A DNA stretch of 34,790 nt. It comes from a virus. The position numbers and the translations under genes are program-made. How positions within the stretch are numbered: the first letter of the stretch is position 1; each line of letters begins with the position of its first letter. The stretch lies in the UHGV virus genome UHGV-0385761; one strand, written 5' to 3'. Below are positions 1 to 34,790 of the stretch, in pieces. The notes beneath the pieces were generated by a model. It was not told the origin of the DNA. It saw nothing but the letters and a program-made list of their open reading frames with translations, and ran no database searches.

Positions 1-819
1 GCACAGGATGGAATCTTGCAGGCAGAGGATGACTGGAATTGCGCTTGGCACTGTGGAGACACCAGCGGAAATCTGAATTATCTGAGTATCGAAGTATGCC
101 AGAGCATGGGTAATCTGGATGTATTTAAAGCAAACGAGGAAAAAGCATTGCAGTTGGCGGCACAGAAGTGTAAGCAGTACGGAATCACACCAAGCACAAG
201 CACAATCAGACTCCATCAGGAAGTGTATGCCACATCATGCCCTCACAGATCTGTAGAGATTCACGGCGGCAGAGAAGCTACAAAATCCTACTTTATTAAA
301 CGGATTAAGGAGTATATGGGTGGTAATGTCACGCCGCCAACTTATGTATCTGGAGGACAGGCGCAGGCTCAAGCTGCACAGAGACAGCCGGAAGTAGTAT
401 TTACTTACGCCGTCAAACTGGAGGACGGACGCATCTTGCCGTTTGTTCGCAATCTCACAGATTTTGCCGGGATTCAAGGTAAGCGCATCACGGATGTAGC
501 TATTAAGGTGGATAAAGGCTCCGTAAAATACAGAGTCCACGTGATTGGAAGAGGGTGGCTGCCTTATGTGACCGGATGTAACTGGAATGACCACAACAAC
601 GGCTATGCAGGTACAGGACAGCCAATCGATGCAATCGAGGTGTACTACAATACTCCAGCGGATTATGCGGCAAAATATGGCTACCAGAAAGCGCAGTACC
701 GTGTCAGTCCGGTAAATGGAACATACTGGGATTGGCAGTATGATAATGAGAACGGAAACGGACAGGACGGATATGCTGGAGCGTTCGGGCAGGCAATCGA
801 TAGATTCCAGTTGTTCTAA
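1..819 (+). CDS. Endolysin, N-acetylmuramoyl-L-alanine amidase (Amidase_2/PGRP) C-terminal part plus putative cell-wall-binding domain; partial, continues from the window end
   Basis: Frame 1 is open from nt 1. It carries AWHCGD, NxxSIEVC and the H..CP zinc-ligand motifs of Amidase_2. A C-terminal domain of about 150 aa follows. The stop is at 817-819. Confidence 0.8.
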   Translation, partial: AQDGILQAEDDWNCAWHCGDTSGNLNYLSIEVCQSMGNLDVFKANEEKALQLAAQKCKQYGITPSTSTIRLHQEVYATSCPHRSVEIHGGREATKSYFIKRIKEYMGGNVTPPTYVSGGQAQAQAAQRQPEVVFTYAVKLEDGRILPFVRNLTDFAGIQGKRITDVAIKVDKGSVKYRVHVIGRGWLPYVTGCNWNDHNNGYAGTGQPIDAIEVYYNTPADYAAKYGYQKAQYRVSPVNGTYWDWQYDNENGNGQDGYAGAFGQAIDRFQLF

Positions 820-825
820 TAAAAA

Positions 826-853
826 TCCCCTCGGAGATCAGTTATCTGAGGGG
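826..853 (+). terminator. Putative rho-independent terminator after the lysin
   Basis: CCCCTCGGAGAT-cagtt-ATCTGAGGGG, an imperfect stem of about 10 bp, followed by an A/T-rich tract. Confidence 0.4.
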
Positions 854-891
854 AATAATATTATTTTCCATCAAAATGTATTTTTAATAAA

Positions 892-919
892 TTCAATTCA
901 AACCCCTCTGTGCTATAAT
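892..919 (+). promoter_or_regulatory. Sigma70-like promoter with extended -10 (TGcTATAAT) for the downstream moron ORF
   Basis: TTCAAT (892-897), 16-bp spacer, TGCTATAAT (911-919). Confidence 0.45.
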
Positions 920-950
920 ATATGTAGTCAATACAAGAGGGGGAGCAAGT

Positions 951-1130
951 ATGGAATATCAAATATACGAATCTTACGATACATTTTTGCTTTACCAAGA
1001 GTTTTTGGAGATACCAGGTAATACATTCAAGTTCCGGCTGCCAGAAGGGATGATCCTGACAACCGAAATGATGCACACCTTTTTACGGGCGGCATATATG
1101 AGTGTTGGACGGATGGATCTGCCGTCCTGA
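951..1130 (+). CDS. Hypothetical 59-aa protein (moron between the lysin and attP/int)
   Basis: Strong RBS AGAGGGGGAG 5 nt before the ATG and its own promoter. Product MEYQIYESYDTFLLYQEFLEIPGNTFKF... has no recognisable family. The track misses it (under 60 aa) and shows a minus-strand antisense ORF here instead. Confidence 0.45.
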   Translation: MEYQIYESYDTFLLYQEFLEIPGNTFKFRLPEGMILTTEMMHTFLRAAYMSVGRMDLPS

Positions 1131-1145
1131 ATATTGTATCATTTA

Positions 1146-1195
1146 TTTTGTACTAATTATACTGCTCCAAATGGGGCTAAACACTTAGTACAAAA
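1146..1195. promoter_or_regulatory. Candidate attP core: perfect 11-bp inverted repeat TTTTGTACTAA / TTAGTACAAAA flanking a 28-bp spacer
   Basis: The 50-bp element sits 5 bp from the serine-recombinase stop codon. Its size and symmetry are typical of large-serine-integrase attP sites. Confidence 0.5.
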
Positions 1196-1199
1196 CAGA

Positions 1200-2600
1200 T
1201 TATAAAAAATCTACAGCTTTAATCGTATTGTCATCATTTAGGTAAATCTCCTGTATTGTGGATCGCCAAAAAGAACGCCTGTTTTCCGGAGACAGCGAAT
1301 CATACATCTGGCGAAAGTCAGTTTTTAATAGTTCTTCTACATAATGCAGGTTTCTCGTCTCTTCTTCCTCGCAAAAAGCAGCAGAAGCGGAATATTCTCT
1401 CTCCAATCTTTGGTACTCCTTATCGTAGTAATCGTAAGAAATCCGCCCTTTTTGAAATAATATATTTAATCGTTCCATTTCTTTTCTAAGCTTTTTCGGA
1501 TCTTTCGCTTTCTTTTGCTTTTTTAACTCTTCGCTGATCTGGTTGGTGCGAACCTTATACTTTTCGTACTCTCTTTCAAGATTTTCGAGCAGATATTTTT
1601 CGATAAGGTTCTGGCTCACCCTATGCCTATACGTGCAAATATGGTCTTTAAGCGCTCTATTGCAACGGTAGTAGCAGTACGTCCTTTTTTCCCACGTTTT
1701 ACGATTTATAACGGACGAGCATCCTGTACCGACTAATTTCTGTCCGCATACAGGGCAACGTATTAAACCAGTAAATAGGTATACTCTGCCAGATGGTGTG
1801 CTTTTTATATTTCTTTTCGAGATAGTTTGCATCTCATCCCATTCTTTTTCTGACAGGTATGCTGGACAATAAGGGTATCCTCTGTACGTCCCCTTGTAAA
1901 ATTCGCTCGATAACATTGTTCTCAACATTCCATAGCTAAAATCAATACCATAGGCCTCTTGCATGTACCGGACAGCACCTTTTTTGGAGTTATGGATTCT
2001 AAAATAATTAAAAAAATCTTCCACCATGTGTTCTGTTTCCGGATCCTTAACCATGCATTTCTTTCCATCCACAACGCCTGTTTTATATCCAAAAGGCATA
2101 TTTGCATCTCCGAATATTAACTTCCTCTGTCTTATAGATGCTTCATTCACAAATTTAATTCGCTCGGATGTGGTGTCTACTTCGTTTTGACCGATCGACA
2201 GCACTACATTTAACTGCAATCGTCCATCTCTTGTCTCCATGTTTATACCGGGCTCTGATACGGAAATCCAGCGAACACCATGATCATCAAGCACATCTTG
2301 CACCTTATAAAAATCAGAAAGATTTCGAAACCATCTGTCGAGTCTCCAGAAAATTATCACATCAATTTTATCCCTTTTTACGTCCTCTACAAGAGCGTGT
2401 ATGGCTTTTCTTTTCTTCAATTCTTTTCTGGCAGTCTTTCCCTCGTCCGCATAGACGCCTACTATAGACATATTGTTGTCTGTTGCGTATTGCTCCAGGC
2501 ATTCTTTCTGTGCTTGCAGAGACTTGCCATGTACGCTCTGCTCAAATGTGGAGACGCGGATGTATATGGCACACCGCAGTATTTTTTCTGGCATTTGCAT
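1200..2600 (-). CDS. Large serine recombinase (phage integrase)
   Basis: N-terminal resolvase domain with the YIRVSTFEQ catalytic serine motif, a recombinase domain, a CxxC...C zinc ribbon and a coiled-coil tail. The start is taken at MQMPEK (ATG 2600) after the RBS AAGGAGAG; the track's upstream extension lacks an RBS. Confidence 0.9.
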   Translation of the reverse strand: MQMPEKILRCAIYIRVSTFEQSVHGKSLQAQKECLEQYATDNNMSIVGVYADEGKTARKELKKRKAIHALVEDVKRDKIDVIIFWRLDRWFRNLSDFYKVQDVLDDHGVRWISVSEPGINMETRDGRLQLNVVLSIGQNEVDTTSERIKFVNEASIRQRKLIFGDANMPFGYKTGVVDGKKCMVKDPETEHMVEDFFNYFRIHNSKKGAVRYMQEAYGIDFSYGMLRTMLSSEFYKGTYRGYPYCPAYLSEKEWDEMQTISKRNIKSTPSGRVYLFTGLIRCPVCGQKLVGTGCSSVINRKTWEKRTYCYYRCNRALKDHICTYRHRVSQNLIEKYLLENLEREYEKYKVRTNQISEELKKQKKAKDPKKLRKEMERLNILFQKGRISYDYYDKEYQRLEREYSASAAFCEEEETRNLHYVEELLKTDFRQMYDSLSPENRRSFWRSTIQEIYLNDDNTIKAVDFL

Positions 2601-2769
2601 CACTCTCCTTTTGTAAAATATATTTAAAATTGGTACAAAAATAACAGCCAGCGCAAAACATATGTTCCGCTTGTGTGACTGCCCCGAAGATGATACAATA
2701 TTCGTGGATTTCAATCGCATATCTTCGGATATGTATACCGTCTCTGTTGGCGCAGGGGCGGTTTTTAAT

Positions 2770-3147
2770 TTACTGATTGATGATCATTCCTGCCCCGTCT
2801 CTGAAAGTTCCCGTAGCAATTTTAATAATGTCGTAGATATATCCGATGCCAAAACACCCGCCAGTGAGTAACCAAATAATACCAGTCCCAATTTTTCCTA
2901 CGTAAAATCTATGTATTCCTAGGACTCCTAGTAGGATTGCAAGGATAAGTGTTACGACCTTACTCTTTGGGCTAGTGCCTGATGCAAACCCTGAATTTAC
3001 CACATTTGCCTGAGCAGTGTTGTTAATCACAACGCTTGATGCTCCCGAAGTTTCGATCTTTTCAACTTGTTTCCCGCATTTTGGGCAAACAACGCAGTCT
3101 GCACTGATCTGCTCACCGCAATGCTTACAAAATTTTGTTTCGCTCAT
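2770..3147 (-). CDS. Zinc-ribbon plus TM2-domain membrane protein (lysogeny-module cargo; possible superinfection exclusion)
   Basis: [15 protein letters not shown] zinc ribbon at the N-terminus. The C-terminal TM2 domain motif is [39 protein letters not shown] precedes ATG 3147. Confidence 0.8.
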
Positions 3148-3276
3148 TTCATTTTCTCCTTTTCCTCTGTACTTTTCCCACAATTTATATATAAACGCCT
3201 AAGCGGTTATACCATATTAAATTAAAATCTTCCATCAATCCTTATAAAATATAAGAACAAATGTTCGAATAAAATG

Positions 3277-3305
3277 TTGATTTTTGTCCCCTGAGATAGT
3301 ATTAT
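3277..3305 (+). promoter_or_regulatory. Near-consensus promoter TTGATT-17-TATTAT flanked by TGTTCGAA / TTCGAACA inverted repeats (3262-3269, 3318-3325)
   Basis: Read directly from the sequence. The -35 hexamer overlaps an ATGTTGA motif that resembles the switch operator half-site TGTTGA. Confidence 0.45.
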
Positions 3306-3354
3306 ATGTTCAGGGATTTCGAACAAGTGTTTTTGTAGTTAGGAGGGACTCACG

Positions 3355-3465
3355 ATGGACGAATTAAATATCTTGTTATCCAAGCTCAACGGTAATGATT
3401 ATAAAATCATCCGGCAGCTTGTTTCGATATTACATAGGTATCTGGAGCGAAGAGGGAGACTTTAG
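3355..3465 (+). CDS. Hypothetical 36-aa peptide (MDELNILLSKLNGNDYKIIRQLVSILHRYLERRGRL)
   Basis: RBS AGGAGGG 7 nt upstream and a consensus promoter upstream. It is convergent with the repressor gene. Confidence 0.4.
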   Translation: MDELNILLSKLNGNDYKIIRQLVSILHRYLERRGRL

Positions 3466-3482
3466 TCTTCCCCTTTTTTATT
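3454..3482 (+). terminator. Putative terminator at the convergence of the 36-aa ORF and the repressor gene
   Basis: GGGAGAC-ttta-GTCTTCCC imperfect stem followed by CTTTTTTATT. Confidence 0.35.
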
Positions 3483-3854
3483 CAATCCAGATCCTACGCT
3501 TTTAAAATACTCTCTTATAACAAGTTTTGACTTCTCATCCATTTCCTGATATTTCTTCATCATTTCTATAATAATATCGTAAAAAGGATTTCCGACGCCG
3601 TCGTATTCAAGCAAGTCTTCTACGTAGTGGCCTACTTCATCAGATGGCTGTTTAAACATTTCTCCATTTCCGGATCTTAACCACTCTTCGTTCACGCTGT
3701 ATTTATTGCATAAATCAGAAATAACTCTATCACTCGGAATTGCTTTTCCTATTTCATATGTAGCAATCGTATTTCTTTTTAATCCAAGTTTATCAGCAAG
3801 TTCTTGCTGCGTTATTCCTATTGTCTTGCGCAGCTCTTTTATGCGCTCATTCAT
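3462..3854 (-). CDS. XRE-family HTH transcriptional repressor (cI-like phage repressor)
   Basis: N-terminal HTH_XRE (IKELRKTIGITQQELADKLGLKRNTIATYE). RBS AGGAGGTG precedes ATG 3854 (MNERIK...). The C-terminal domain is not peptidase S24. Confidence 0.85.
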   Translation of the reverse strand: MNERIKELRKTIGITQQELADKLGLKRNTIATYEIGKAIPSDRVISDLCNKYSVNEEWLRSGNGEMFKQPSDEVGHYVEDLLEYDGVGNPFYDIIIEMMKKYQEMDEKSKLVIREYFKSVGSGLNKKGED

Positions 3855-3878
3855 TGGCACACCTCCTATTCAATGTAG

Positions 3879-14777: not shown

Positions 14778-15283
14778 ACGTACTAGAGAAGATTTTAGAG
14801 GAAATTGAAGAACGTGTGAACATGGTTAAAAACATTCCAGTCAATGAAGATGATGATTTTCTGGATGGCGAGGAGTGTTATGAAGCCGGAAGAATACAAG
14901 GTCGGTATGAAGAGCTGGTATGGTGCAGAAATATGATTCGTTCCCACATGGATGAAGTTCAAAACTGTGGAGATTACAGCCGAAGAAAATGGTATCAAAA
15001 AGGATACGAGGACGGAAAGAAAGATAATGACTGGATTCCGGTAAGTGAGAAATTGCCGGAAGATGATGATATGAGATTCTATATGTGTATTGTCGAAAAT
15101 CACGAAGAGGATTTGCCGATGTTCTGCCAGTATGATAGAGAATATGGATTTGGATTTTGGCGTGATATTTACGATTCGGCAACCTTAGGATTTGTTGATA
15201 CGGAGTTTAGTACAAATGATGAATTGGGGTATGAAAAGGTTGTAGCATGGCAGCCACTTCCAGAACCATACAAGGAGAAATAA
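14774..15283 (+). CDS. DUF551-domain protein
   Basis: C-terminal WIPVSEKLPEDDD...VVAWQPLPEPYKE. ATGA overlap with the upstream ORF. Confidence 0.6.
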   Translation: MNVLEKILEEIEERVNMVKNIPVNEDDDFLDGEECYEAGRIQGRYEELVWCRNMIRSHMDEVQNCGDYSRRKWYQKGYEDGKKDNDWIPVSEKLPEDDDMRFYMCIVENHEEDLPMFCQYDREYGFGFWRDIYDSATLGFVDTEFSTNDELGYEKVVAWQPLPEPYKEK

Positions 15284-16838: not shown

Positions 16839-16883
16839 GCCGTGGCAAATGTAGGGCAGACAGGTTCGACTCCTGTACACGGC
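16839..16883 (+). other. tRNA-like minihelix fragment: acceptor-like GCCGTGG...ACACGGC plus a perfect T-arm ACAGG-TTCGACT-CCTGT, with no D or anticodon arms
   Basis: The T-loop consensus TTCGANT sits in a 5-bp stem. The 6/7-bp acceptor pairing is only 16 nt away, too short for a full tRNA. Confidence 0.4.
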
Positions 16884-16956
16884 TTTGTGATGTAAGGTTT
16901 GCGGCTTACCAGCTGGGGGTTGCTGTAGGGAGTGCACACCGGCGTTACATCACAAA
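16884..16956. repeat. 12-bp perfect inverted repeat TTTGTGATGTAA / TTACATCACAAA enclosing a 49-nt GC-rich loop
   Basis: Read directly. It lies immediately 3' of the tRNA-like fragment. Confidence 0.55.
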
Positions 16957-17078
16957 TGGTACCAAAACGCAGATATCCGCAGATTTGCAAAACAAACAAA
17001 AATAGATTCAGCAATCTATATTTAGTGTCAGTACCTGAGTGCGGATAGGGTAAAGGATGTCAATAAAAGGCATCCTAC

Positions 17079-17151
17079 GGGTGTATAGCTCAGTAGGTAG
17101 AGCAATCGGCTGTTAACCGATGTGTCGCAGGTTCGAGTCCTGCTATACCCG
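17079..17151 (+). tRNA. tRNA-Asn (anticodon GTT), no encoded CCA
   Basis: GGGTGTA acceptor pairs with TATACCC (one G-U). D-arm GCTCAGTAGGTAGAGC, anticodon loop CTGTTAA, T-arm GCAGGTTCGAGTCCTGC. Confidence 0.85.
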
Positions 17152-17155
17152 TTGT

Positions 17156-34634: not shown

Positions 34635-34790
34635 ATGAGTATTTGTCGTGGAGTAGCAGGAAACAGAGGAAGAAATCCAGTGGGAATCTTTATCCATAAT
34701 GACGCTGGTAGTCAGAATGCGAACGCAGCGTTTTACAGAAATTGGATACAGACACATCCCTTGGAAAATGGATTTGCGCACTATTATGTA
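34635..34790 (+). CDS. Endolysin Amidase_2 N-terminus (partial; continues in frame at window position 1)
   Basis: [39 protein letters not shown]...NGFAHYYV. 156 nt is exactly 52 codons, so the frame runs into nt 1. Confidence 0.8.

What the first reader, a model, noticed from the sequence alone, without database searches (positions are those of the whole stretch)
1146..1195. Perfect 11-bp inverted repeat directly 3' of the large serine recombinase: candidate attP core
TTTTGTACTAA (1146-1156) and TTAGTACAAAA (1185-1195) are exact reverse complements flanking a 28-bp spacer, and the element ends 5 bp from the integrase stop codon. Large serine integrases recognise attP sites of about 50 bp with partial dyad symmetry around a central crossover dinucleotide. 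Here the symmetry is unusually perfect. A host attB would carry a shorter, less symmetric version around the same central dinucleotide.
Basis: partly seen in the sequence, partly recalled or inferred. Interest (0 to 1): 0.55.

Follow-up and report, generated by a model that had tools for sequence, protein, structure and literature searches.

The report
Phage attachment site of serine integrase
The inverted repeat is the attachment site (attP) through which this Ruminococcus gnavus phage inserts itself into a bacterial transporter gene, which is an ordinary kind of feature but was not previously mapped for these phages.

Summary
TTTTGTACTAA (1146-1156) and TTAGTACAAAA (1185-1195) are perfect reverse complements around a 28-bp spacer, 4 bp from the stop codon of a 466-aa large serine recombinase (1200-2600, minus strand).

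The repeat alone proves little: about 0.5 such repeats are expected per window by chance. Comparison with other sequences settles it.

- Lysogen contigs of Mediterraneibacter (Ruminococcus) gnavus carry window sequence up to position 1172 joined to host DNA (attL), and window sequence from 1164 onward joined to host DNA (attR).
- Prophage-free strains carry the intact attB inside an NMT1-like ABC-transporter substrate-binding-protein gene, at codons ..VTGFGADK...
- attP and attB share only 9 bp (GCTCCAAAT, 1164-1172).
- Natural variants confine the crossover to CCAAAT (1167-1172). This interval contains the dyad centre AA (1170-1171).
- The frame TTGTACTAA-N10-CCR-NN-YGG-N10-TTAGTACAA recurs in 37 viral-contig stretches. 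Where flanking sequence is held, it lies 4-18 bp after the stop of a homologous recombinase (26-97% identity).
- The frame is absent from a sibling phage with a tyrosine integrase.

This is a new member of a known kind. It is useful as a new integrase/attP/attB set for R. gnavus, but not surprising.

The parts
1146..1195 (.). attP of the phage: a 50-bp dyad-symmetric site bound and recombined by the adjacent large serine integrase
   Evidence: The sequence is shown and the dyad. Lysogen junctions fall at its centre.
1146..1156 (+). Left outer arm TTTTGTACTAA, on the int-distal P side. TTGTACTAA (1148-1156) is the family-invariant part and is presumed to be the zinc-ribbon-domain recognition motif.
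   Evidence: The arm is retained in attL of lysogens.
1185..1195 (+). Right outer arm TTAGTACAAAA, on the int-proximal P' side.
   Evidence: It is retained in attR of lysogens. The same arm is present in all 7 protein-found prophages whose held sequence extends past the integrase stop.
1165..1176 (+). Inner symmetric core CTCCA-AA-TGGGG. The family consensus is CYCCR-NN-YGGRG. It is presumed to be the recombinase-domain contact region.
1164..1172 (+). 9-bp identity block shared by attP and attB: GCTCCAAAT, which reads ATTTGGAGC on the integrase-sense strand.
   Evidence: In lysogens the BLAST matches to phage and to host overlap by exactly these 9 bp at both junctions.
1167..1172 (+). Crossover interval as narrowed by natural variants (CCAAAT).
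   Evidence: Contig IMGVR_3300045988_017801 carries attL with TTTGGGG (phage allele) and attR with TTTGGAG (host allele) on the same contig. L049 shows the same.
1170..1171 (+). Central, non-palindromic dinucleotide AA (TT on the integrase-sense strand). This is the inferred site of the 2-nt staggered cleavage and sets integration polarity.
   Evidence: It is the geometric centre of the dyad: (1146+1195)/2 = 1170.5. It lies inside the mapped crossover interval. Relatives have TT, CC or AA here, never a palindromic pair.
1200..2600 (-). Large serine integrase, 466 aa. It has a YIRVS catalytic-serine motif, a Resolvase N-terminal domain, a recombinase domain and a zinc-ribbon domain.

Best explanation
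The 50-bp element at 1146-1195 is the phage attachment site (attP) of the large serine integrase encoded immediately next to it.

What is shown. The window is a circularly permuted complete temperate phage genome of Mediterraneibacter (Ruminococcus) gnavus. The phage integrates by a conservative reciprocal exchange between this site and an attB. The attB lies inside a host gene for an NMT1-like ABC-transporter substrate-binding lipoprotein, at codons ..E-L-V-T-G-F-G-A-D-K... The exchange produces two hybrid sites. attL joins the host N-terminal gene part to the int-distal arm. attR joins the int-proximal arm to the host C-terminal gene part. The exchange point lies within CCAAAT (1167-1172).

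What is inferred from the established mechanism of large serine recombinases. Integrase dimers bind each site. The zinc-ribbon domains read the outer TTGTACTAA arms and the recombinase domains read the inner YGGRG motifs. The two sites synapse. All four strands are cut with a 2-nt stagger at the central AA/TT (1170-1171). Subunits rotate 180 degrees and the ends are religated. The non-palindromic centre fixes the orientation of the prophage. Excision would need a still unidentified recombination directionality factor.

Integration splits the host gene after codon 82 and presumably inactivates it.
For: Gene and genome context
- The adjacent gene is a large serine recombinase. Its N-terminal domain matches TP901-1 integrase.
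- The genome is circular. The endolysin gene runs from 34636 across the window end to 819. The layout lysis genes - attP - int - repressor is the usual temperate-phage order.

The two junctions
- attL: six lysogen loci, two of them from complete 3.3-3.5 Mb genomes, match the window up to 1172 and then continue in host DNA. Ten more viral-contig stretches show the same junction.
- attR: 22 of the 28 pattern-bearing stretches carry the window's int 3' end and P' arm up to the position equivalent to 1164, then host DNA. The other 6 carry attP.

The intact target
- attB is intact in prophage-free M. gnavus contigs. It reads GTCACAGG-ATTTGGAGC-CGACAAAACG (L084 1734-1742).
- It is flanked by the same host genes as in the lysogens, at 99.5-99.9% identity.

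Both junctions on one contig
- Two viral contigs carry both junctions, 35,987 and about 37,700 bp apart. The window is 34,790 bp.
- A phage/host polymorphism at the fourth base right of the centre is phage-type in attL and host-type in attR on the same contig. This places the exchange within ATTTGG.

Relatives
- Prophages with 66-78% identical integrases, in Dorea, Coprococcus, Eubacterium and other Lachnospiraceae genomes, have the same arm after the int stop. They then continue in the orthologous host gene at the same codons.
- The full dyad frame occurs in 37 viral-contig stretches. With L001 and L003 that makes 39 loci, and in 37 of them the frame lies 4-18 bp after the stop of an integrase homologue. 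In the other two the site lies too close to the end of the held sequence.
- The frame is absent from a sibling phage with a tyrosine integrase in the same slot.
Against: - No experiment is available. Cleavage at exactly 1170-1171, and which protein domains contact which bases, are inferred from other serine integrases.
- No lysogen with an integrase 100% identical to the window's was found. The lysogens carry integrases about 91-97% identical at DNA or protein level, although their att arms are identical to the window's.
- The attB left half-site resembles the attP half-sites poorly (2-3 of 13 inner positions). The expected 5-bp inward shift of the outer motif in attB is only weakly visible.
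- The Pfam Recombinase domain scores just below its curated cut-off (19.5 against 21.1 bits).
Confidence: 0.94

Rival explanations
1. The inverted repeat is a bidirectional intrinsic terminator, or another RNA hairpin, between the convergent small ORF (951-1130, plus strand) and the integrase gene (minus strand).
For: The element lies between two convergent genes. As RNA it folds far better than shuffled sequence on both strands (z = -5.4 and -3.7).
Against: - The good fold follows automatically from the dyad symmetry.
- The stem is A+T-rich, the loop region is 28 nt, and no T-run follows on either strand. The terminator scan does not call it, although it does call a nearby site at 2737-2762.
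- The arms are conserved as a fixed sequence (TTGTACTAA) in prophages found through the protein alone, while the flanking bases vary. There is no covariation.
- In the prophage the two arms are about 36 kb apart, so the hairpin cannot form in the state where int would need terminating.
- Rfam finds nothing here.
Confidence: 0.03
2. The repeat is a chance inverted repeat in A+T-rich intergenic DNA and has no function.
For: About 0.48 perfect 11-nt inverted repeats with a spacer of 60 nt or less are expected per window. 30% of simulated windows have one, and the window has another at 16884-16956.
Against: - The same frame recurs in 37 viral-contig stretches next to homologous integrases.
- Lysogen junctions fall exactly at its centre.
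- TTGTACTAA is enriched in the window (3 occurrences against 0.13 expected).
Confidence: 0.01
3. The repeat is an operator for another dimeric DNA-binding protein, such as the repressor or an excision factor. On this view the true crossover site only happens to be nearby.
For: Perfect palindromic arms are typical of operators. A Cro/CI-type repressor is encoded at 3462-3860.
Against: - The crossover interval (1167-1172) contains the exact centre of the dyad.
- The site travels with the serine-integrase gene. It is replaced together with that gene in sibling phages that keep the same flanking backbone.
- It is conserved next to integrases down to 26% identity in otherwise different phages.
Confidence: 0.02

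Closest known systems
attP sites of characterised large serine integrases: Listeria phage A118/LI integrase, lactococcal phage TP901-1, Streptomyces phage phiC31, mycobacteriophage Bxb1
   Same: - The site is about 50 bp with imperfect dyad symmetry about a non-palindromic central dinucleotide.
- It lies next to the integrase gene.
- Identity with attB is limited to a short core.
- attL and attR are simple hybrid sites with no target duplication.
- The integrase has the Resolvase N-terminal domain, recombinase domain and zinc-ribbon architecture. Its N-terminal domain matches the TP901-1 integrase structure 3bvp (E = 1e-11).
   Different: - The site sequence (TTGTACTAA arms, CYCCR-NN-YGGRG core), the attB (an NMT1-like substrate-binding-protein gene) and the host (gut Lachnospiraceae) are all different.
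- Outside the catalytic domain the integrase finds no solved relative by sequence.
- Nothing here is tested biochemically.
Prophages that integrate inside host genes through serine integrases, such as A118 in comK and SPbeta in spsM (from my own knowledge)
   Same: The attB lies inside a protein-coding gene. Integration splits that gene, and excision should restore it precisely.
   Different: There is no evidence here that excision is used as a regulatory switch. The split gene encodes a transporter binding protein of unknown substrate.
attP of R. gnavus phage phiRgPS6 (Buttimer et al. 2023, PMC10072058)
   Same: It has the same host species, a related phage backbone and the same genomic slot between the endolysin and integrase genes.
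   Different: That phage uses a tyrosine integrase with a 21-bp core identical in attP and attB, in an intergenic site. It lacks the dyad described here.

Membership tests
attP site of a large serine recombinase (phage serine integrase) | Adjacent gene encodes a large serine recombinase (catalytic Resolvase domain, recombinase domain, and zinc-ribbon domain with a coiled coil) | tested here: met
   Resolvase E = 9e-27. Zn_ribbon_recom E = 2.7e-9. Recombinase PF07508 matches over its full length, 19.5 bits against a cut-off of 21.1. Coiled-coil-like weak hits fall at residues 340-407. PHROG 95 'integrase' E = 1e-98. The YIRVS motif aligns with the TP901-1 N-terminal domain.
attP site of a large serine recombinase (phage serine integrase) | Site of roughly 40-50 bp with imperfect dyad symmetry about a non-palindromic central dinucleotide | tested here: met
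   The site spans 50 bp (1146-1195). 28 of 40 positions are symmetric and the centre is AA at 1170-1171. Relatives have TT, CC or AA at the centre.
attP site of a large serine recombinase (phage serine integrase) | Prophage junctions (attL, attR) are hybrids that break at the centre of the site | tested here: met
   attL matches the window up to 1172. attR matches from 1164. The crossover is narrowed to 1167-1172. Two contigs carry both junctions.
attP site of a large serine recombinase (phage serine integrase) | Intact attB in prophage-free hosts, sharing only a short core with attP, with conservative exchange and no target duplication | tested here: met
   L084 1734-1742 ATTTGGAGC is the only shared block. 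The host flanks of attL and attR abut exactly in the intact gene.
attP site of a large serine recombinase (phage serine integrase) | Site co-varies with the integrase type: present with homologous integrases, absent with unrelated ones | tested here: met
   37 of 39 loci with the frame have a homologous integrase 4-18 bp away. All 7 protein-found prophages whose held sequence extends past the integrase stop have the arm. A tyrosine-integrase sibling and a second serine-integrase cassette in the same slot lack it.
attP site of a large serine recombinase (phage serine integrase) | Outer (zinc-ribbon-domain) motif lies about 5 bp closer to the centre in attB than in attP | tested here: inconclusive
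   At a 5-bp shift the attB halves match TTAGTACAA at 4 of 9 and 5 of 9 positions. These are local maxima but not unique ones.
attP site of a large serine recombinase (phage serine integrase) | Double-strand cleavage with a 2-nt 3' overhang at the central dinucleotide; integration without host factors; excision requires a directionality factor | not testable with these tools
   Needs biochemistry. No directionality factor was looked for.
Intrinsic (rho-independent) terminator | G+C-rich stem, short loop, followed by a T-run | tested here: not met
   The stem is A+T-rich, the intervening region is 28 nt, and there is no T-run on either strand. The scan does not call it.

The most novel reading that the evidence does not exclude
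The attP-integrase unit is a swappable cassette set into a shared regulatory chassis.

- A perfect 14-nt inverted pair (GAATATTGTATCAT, 1129-1142 and 2690-2703) brackets the cassette in this phage. The same pair brackets the cassette in sibling phages carrying a tyrosine integrase or an unrelated serine integrase.
- The int-proximal copy lies in a conserved structured element. That element has an extended -10-like TGATACAAT and a plus-strand terminator (2737-2767). It could produce a small antisense RNA of about 60 nt that controls integrase expression.

Separately, the attP belongs to a motif-defined family (TTGTACTAA-N10-CCR-NN-YGG-N10-TTAGTACAA). That family is shared by integrases down to 26% identity. 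It includes natural polarity flips: AA versus TT at the centre gives the opposite prophage orientation in the same host gene.
Probability: 0.2. Interest if true: 0.5.

Novelty: new member of a known kind. Interest (0 to 1): 0.3.

Why it matters
It gives a complete, sequence-level integrase/attP/attB/attL/attR set for serine-integrase phages of R. gnavus, a gut bacterium associated with inflammatory bowel disease.

A 2026 survey of 29 such phages states that their integration sites were not identified, so lysogeny could not be told from pseudolysogeny (PMC13435783). The junction sequences reported here allow simple PCR tests for lysogeny.

The result also names the host gene that is split by integration. 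It offers a new candidate integrase and site pair for genetic tools in Lachnospiraceae.

The family-wide motif allows attP prediction from sequence for a broad group of related integrases.

None of this changes how serine integrases are understood to work.

Tried and rejected
- **Exact-protein look-up of the window's integrase** found no contig. I went round this with the neighbouring 59-aa ORF and with DNA patterns.
- **Full-text search for the arm sequences** TTGTACTAA / TTAGTACAA returned only unrelated primers and vector sequences.
- **Rfam**, at E-value threshold on 700-3500 and at gathering threshold on the whole window, found nothing at the site. The only hit was tRNA-Asn at 17079-17151.
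- **A third integrase half-site for autoregulation.** TTGGTACAAAA (2630-2640), just upstream of the int start, looked like a candidate. I rejected this. The motif is part of an int-upstream region that is equally conserved in a tyrosine-integrase phage (L002) and another serine-integrase cassette (L055). In relatives the G is often A (TTTTTATAC), unlike the invariant attP arms.
- **The 14-nt inverted pair as terminal repeats of a mobile int cassette.** This idea is weakened. The right copy belongs to the conserved backbone upstream of int, not to the swapped segment. It remains unexplained.
- **Narrowing the left edge of the crossover** with a Coprococcus attB failed. Protein P0101 came from a different species than prophage L011.
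- **The 5-bp attB/attP motif shift** was inconclusive.
- **One script timed out** and was rerun in a faster form.

Full report
**What is in the sequence**

One search confirms TTTTGTACTAA at 1146-1156 and TTAGTACAAAA at 1185-1195. They are exact reverse complements separated by 28 bp.
- The repeat finder reports 39-nt arms (1131-1169 and 1172-1210) that are 72% complementary with 2 nt between them.
- My own count gives 28 of 40 positions symmetric about a centre between 1170 and 1171.
- The inner part reads CTCCA-AA-TGGGG.

The neighbouring minus-strand ORF is best started at the ATG at 2600. This start has an AAAGGAGAG ribosome-binding site, and relatives start at the equivalent position. That gives a 466-aa protein with its stop codon at 1200-1202, 4 bases from the right arm. 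The protein has a Resolvase catalytic domain, a zinc-ribbon recombinase domain and a just-sub-threshold full-length Recombinase domain. It also matches PHROG 95 'integrase' and the TP901-1 integrase N-terminal structure.

The window is a circularly permuted whole phage genome. The endolysin gene starts at 34636 and continues at position 1. Its nearest relatives are temperate phages of Ruminococcus (Mediterraneibacter) gnavus, notably RG-TP1.

**Is the repeat more than chance?**

Not by itself. Simulated windows of the same first-order composition contain on average 0.48 perfect 11-nt inverted repeats with spacers up to 60 nt. 30% of them contain at least one. The real window has a second one at 16884-16956. 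The case therefore rests on comparison with other sequences.

**Junction mapping**

*attL.* The 59-aa ORF at 951-1130 is encoded identically in many assemblies. In six of the ten loci returned, two of them from complete 3.3-3.5 Mb genomes, the sequence follows the window to ...TTTTGTACTAATTATACTGC(T/C)CCAAAT. It then switches to host DNA, CCTGTGACGAG....

*attR.* I searched viral and metagenomic collections for the integrase-proximal arm.
- 22 stretches carry the window's int 3' end and arm, continuing ...GCCCCATTTGGAGC and then host CGACAAAACGATGAC....
- 6 stretches carry the full attP.

*The host gene.* The host pieces on the two sides are the N-terminal 82 codons and the remainder of one gene. 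It encodes an NMT1-like ABC-transporter substrate-binding lipoprotein. NCBI names this protein for M. gnavus.

*attB.* Prophage-free contigs carry the gene intact, with attB reading GAACTCGTCACAGG-ATTTGGAGC-CGACAAAACGATGAC.

*BLAST boundaries.* These make the mapping exact.
- Phage homology ends at window 1172 in attL and at 1164 in attR.
- Host homology ends at L084 1742 and 1734.
- attP and attB therefore share exactly 9 bp, GCTCCAAAT at window 1164-1172, and nothing is duplicated or lost.

*Both junctions on one contig.* Two viral contigs carry both junctions in direct orientation, 35,987 and about 37,700 bp apart. On one of them attL reads TTTGGGG, the allele of a variant attP also seen free in L047 and L072. 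attR reads TTTGGAG, the host allele. The exchange therefore happened within ATTTGG, which is window 1167-1172. The dyad centre (1170-1171) lies inside this 6-bp interval.

**Family evidence**

Eight genome loci encode integrases 66-78% identical to the window's. In seven of them the held sequence extends past the stop codon, and it is followed by the same TTGTACTAA arm, about 11 bp and CYCCR. After that comes the orthologous host gene at the same codons.

In four loci the centre reads TT on the integrase strand, and the integrase abuts the C-terminal part of the host gene, as in the window's type. In three loci the centre reads AA. For two of these (L005, L010) translation confirms that the integrase abuts the N-terminal gene fragment. 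This is a natural polarity flip, as expected if the central dinucleotide alone sets orientation.

The frame TTGTACTAA-N10-CCR-NN-YGG-N10-TTAGTACAA occurs in 37 viral-contig stretches. With about 24 specified bases, essentially none are expected by chance; this is my own estimate, not a computed value. With L001 and L003 that makes 39 loci. In 37 of them a homologue of the integrase (26-97% identity) ends 4-18 bp from the arm. In the other two the site lies too close to the end of the held sequence. The centre is TT, CC or AA, never palindromic.

Sibling phages with the same backbone but a different integrase lack the site. phiRg507T2_3 has a tyrosine integrase. L055 has another serine integrase, whose attB is in a Mn-catalase gene. 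In both, the sequence diverges immediately after GAATATTGTATCA at window 1129-1141.

**Rivals**

As RNA the element folds well (z = -5.4 and -3.7). That is a trivial consequence of the dyad. There is no T-run, the stem is A+T-rich, the terminator scan ignores it, and Rfam has nothing. In the prophage the arms are about 36 kb apart. The arms are conserved as fixed sequence rather than by compensatory change. The chance and operator readings are excluded by the junction data.

**Mechanism**

*Shown:* site identity, the four att sequences, the 6-bp crossover interval, conservative exchange, linkage to the integrase, and disruption of the host gene.

*Inferred from the known mechanism of large serine recombinases:* dimer binding, with zinc-ribbon domains on the outer arms and recombinase domains on the inner YGGRG. 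Also inferred are a 2-nt staggered cut at AA/TT 1170-1171, subunit rotation, and the need for a directionality factor for excision.

The attB right half resembles the attP halves (9 of 13 inner positions). The left half does not (2-3 of 13). The expected 5-bp inward shift of the outer motif is only weakly visible.

**Novelty**

The kind of element is textbook. The specific site, attB and host gene were not found in the literature held here.
- The 2023 R. gnavus phage paper maps only a tyrosine-integrase attP.
- The 2026 phage-library paper says integration sites of the serine-integrase phages were not identified.

I file this as a new member of a known kind, with modest interest.

**Seen in passing**

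- A perfect 14-nt inverted pair brackets the cassette, with 2 hits against 0.02 expected. It also brackets unrelated integrase cassettes.
- The int-proximal copy sits in a conserved structured element. Its plus-strand terminator has G-U pairs that are valid only on the plus strand.

The function of this pair is unexplained.

Noticed in passing
window 1129-1142 and 2690-2703: A perfect 14-nt inverted pair GAATATTGTATCAT / ATGATACAATATTC brackets attP plus int (2 hits against 0.02 expected). At least the 12-nt core AATATTGTATCA also brackets a tyrosine-integrase cassette (L002 2355/3838) and a different serine-integrase cassette (L055 3182/4936). On the outward-facing strands each copy reads as an extended -10 (TGATACAAT). 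Function unknown.
   Followed up: partly
window 2676-2767 (+): The int-upstream element is conserved across phages with different integrase types. It has a stem CCGAAGAT/ATCTTCGG around the 14-mer, with compensatory changes in distant relatives (for example GAGGGATTG/CAATCCCTC). A plus-strand terminator follows at 2737-2767, and its G-U pairs work only on the plus strand. It is a candidate small antisense RNA or antisense-transcript terminator upstream of int. There is no Rfam match.
   Followed up: partly
window 951-1130 (+), promoter-like TGCTATAAT at 911-919: A 59-aa ORF with no Pfam or PHROG match. The identical protein is indexed in 1986 blocks of the assembly collection. It always sits at the prophage end next to attP, whichever integrase cassette follows. 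It is preceded by an extended -10-like sequence after the endolysin terminator, so it could be a lysogen-expressed moron.
   Followed up: partly
L053, L054, L058 (attL) and L055 (attP), positions about 3182-3265: Sibling phages carry a second, unrelated serine-integrase cassette (510 aa) in the same slot. Its attP/attL junction falls after ...GATGTGCGAAAGAA and its attB is in a Mn-catalase gene. L054 and L055 lie 38 kb apart on one contig, which suggests a tandem or mixed assembly.
   Followed up: no
L005, L006, L010 versus L004, L008, L009, L011 (about 40 bp after the integrase stop); L034 and L036 attP: A natural polarity flip within the family. Some relatives have AA instead of TT at the dyad centre on the integrase strand. 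They sit in the same host gene in the opposite orientation, with the integrase next to the N-terminal fragment.
   Followed up: yes
L082 and L083 position about 1732-1745: The M. gnavus attB is polymorphic next to the crossover. One allele reads ACGGGG-TT-TGGAGCC and the other ACAGGA-TT-TGGAGCC. One attL (L094) has ACGGGA. This might affect integration efficiency.
   Followed up: no
window 16855-17152: tRNA-Asn (GTT) lies at 17078-17152. Upstream there is a 12-nt perfect inverted repeat (16884-16895 / 16945-16956) and a fragment resembling a tRNA 3' end (GGTTCGACTCCTGT, about 16864-16877).
   Followed up: no
window 15207-15215 (-): A third copy of the attP arm 9-mer TTGTACTAA lies inside an ORF. 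It has no partner arm and is probably chance.
   Followed up: no
L044/L063 (IMGVR_3300045988_017335) and L071/L081 (OODQ01000399.1), 35,699 bp: One contig has attP at one end and attR at the other, with a repeated 48-nt end. This is probably an assembly of mixed excised and integrated forms from one sample.
   Followed up: no
L001 1883-3487 (RG-TP1 gp42): The GenBank record annotates the RG-TP1 integrase as a 534-aa 'hypothetical protein' from an upstream start. The conserved ribosome-binding site and the relatives support a start giving 466 aa.
   Followed up: partly
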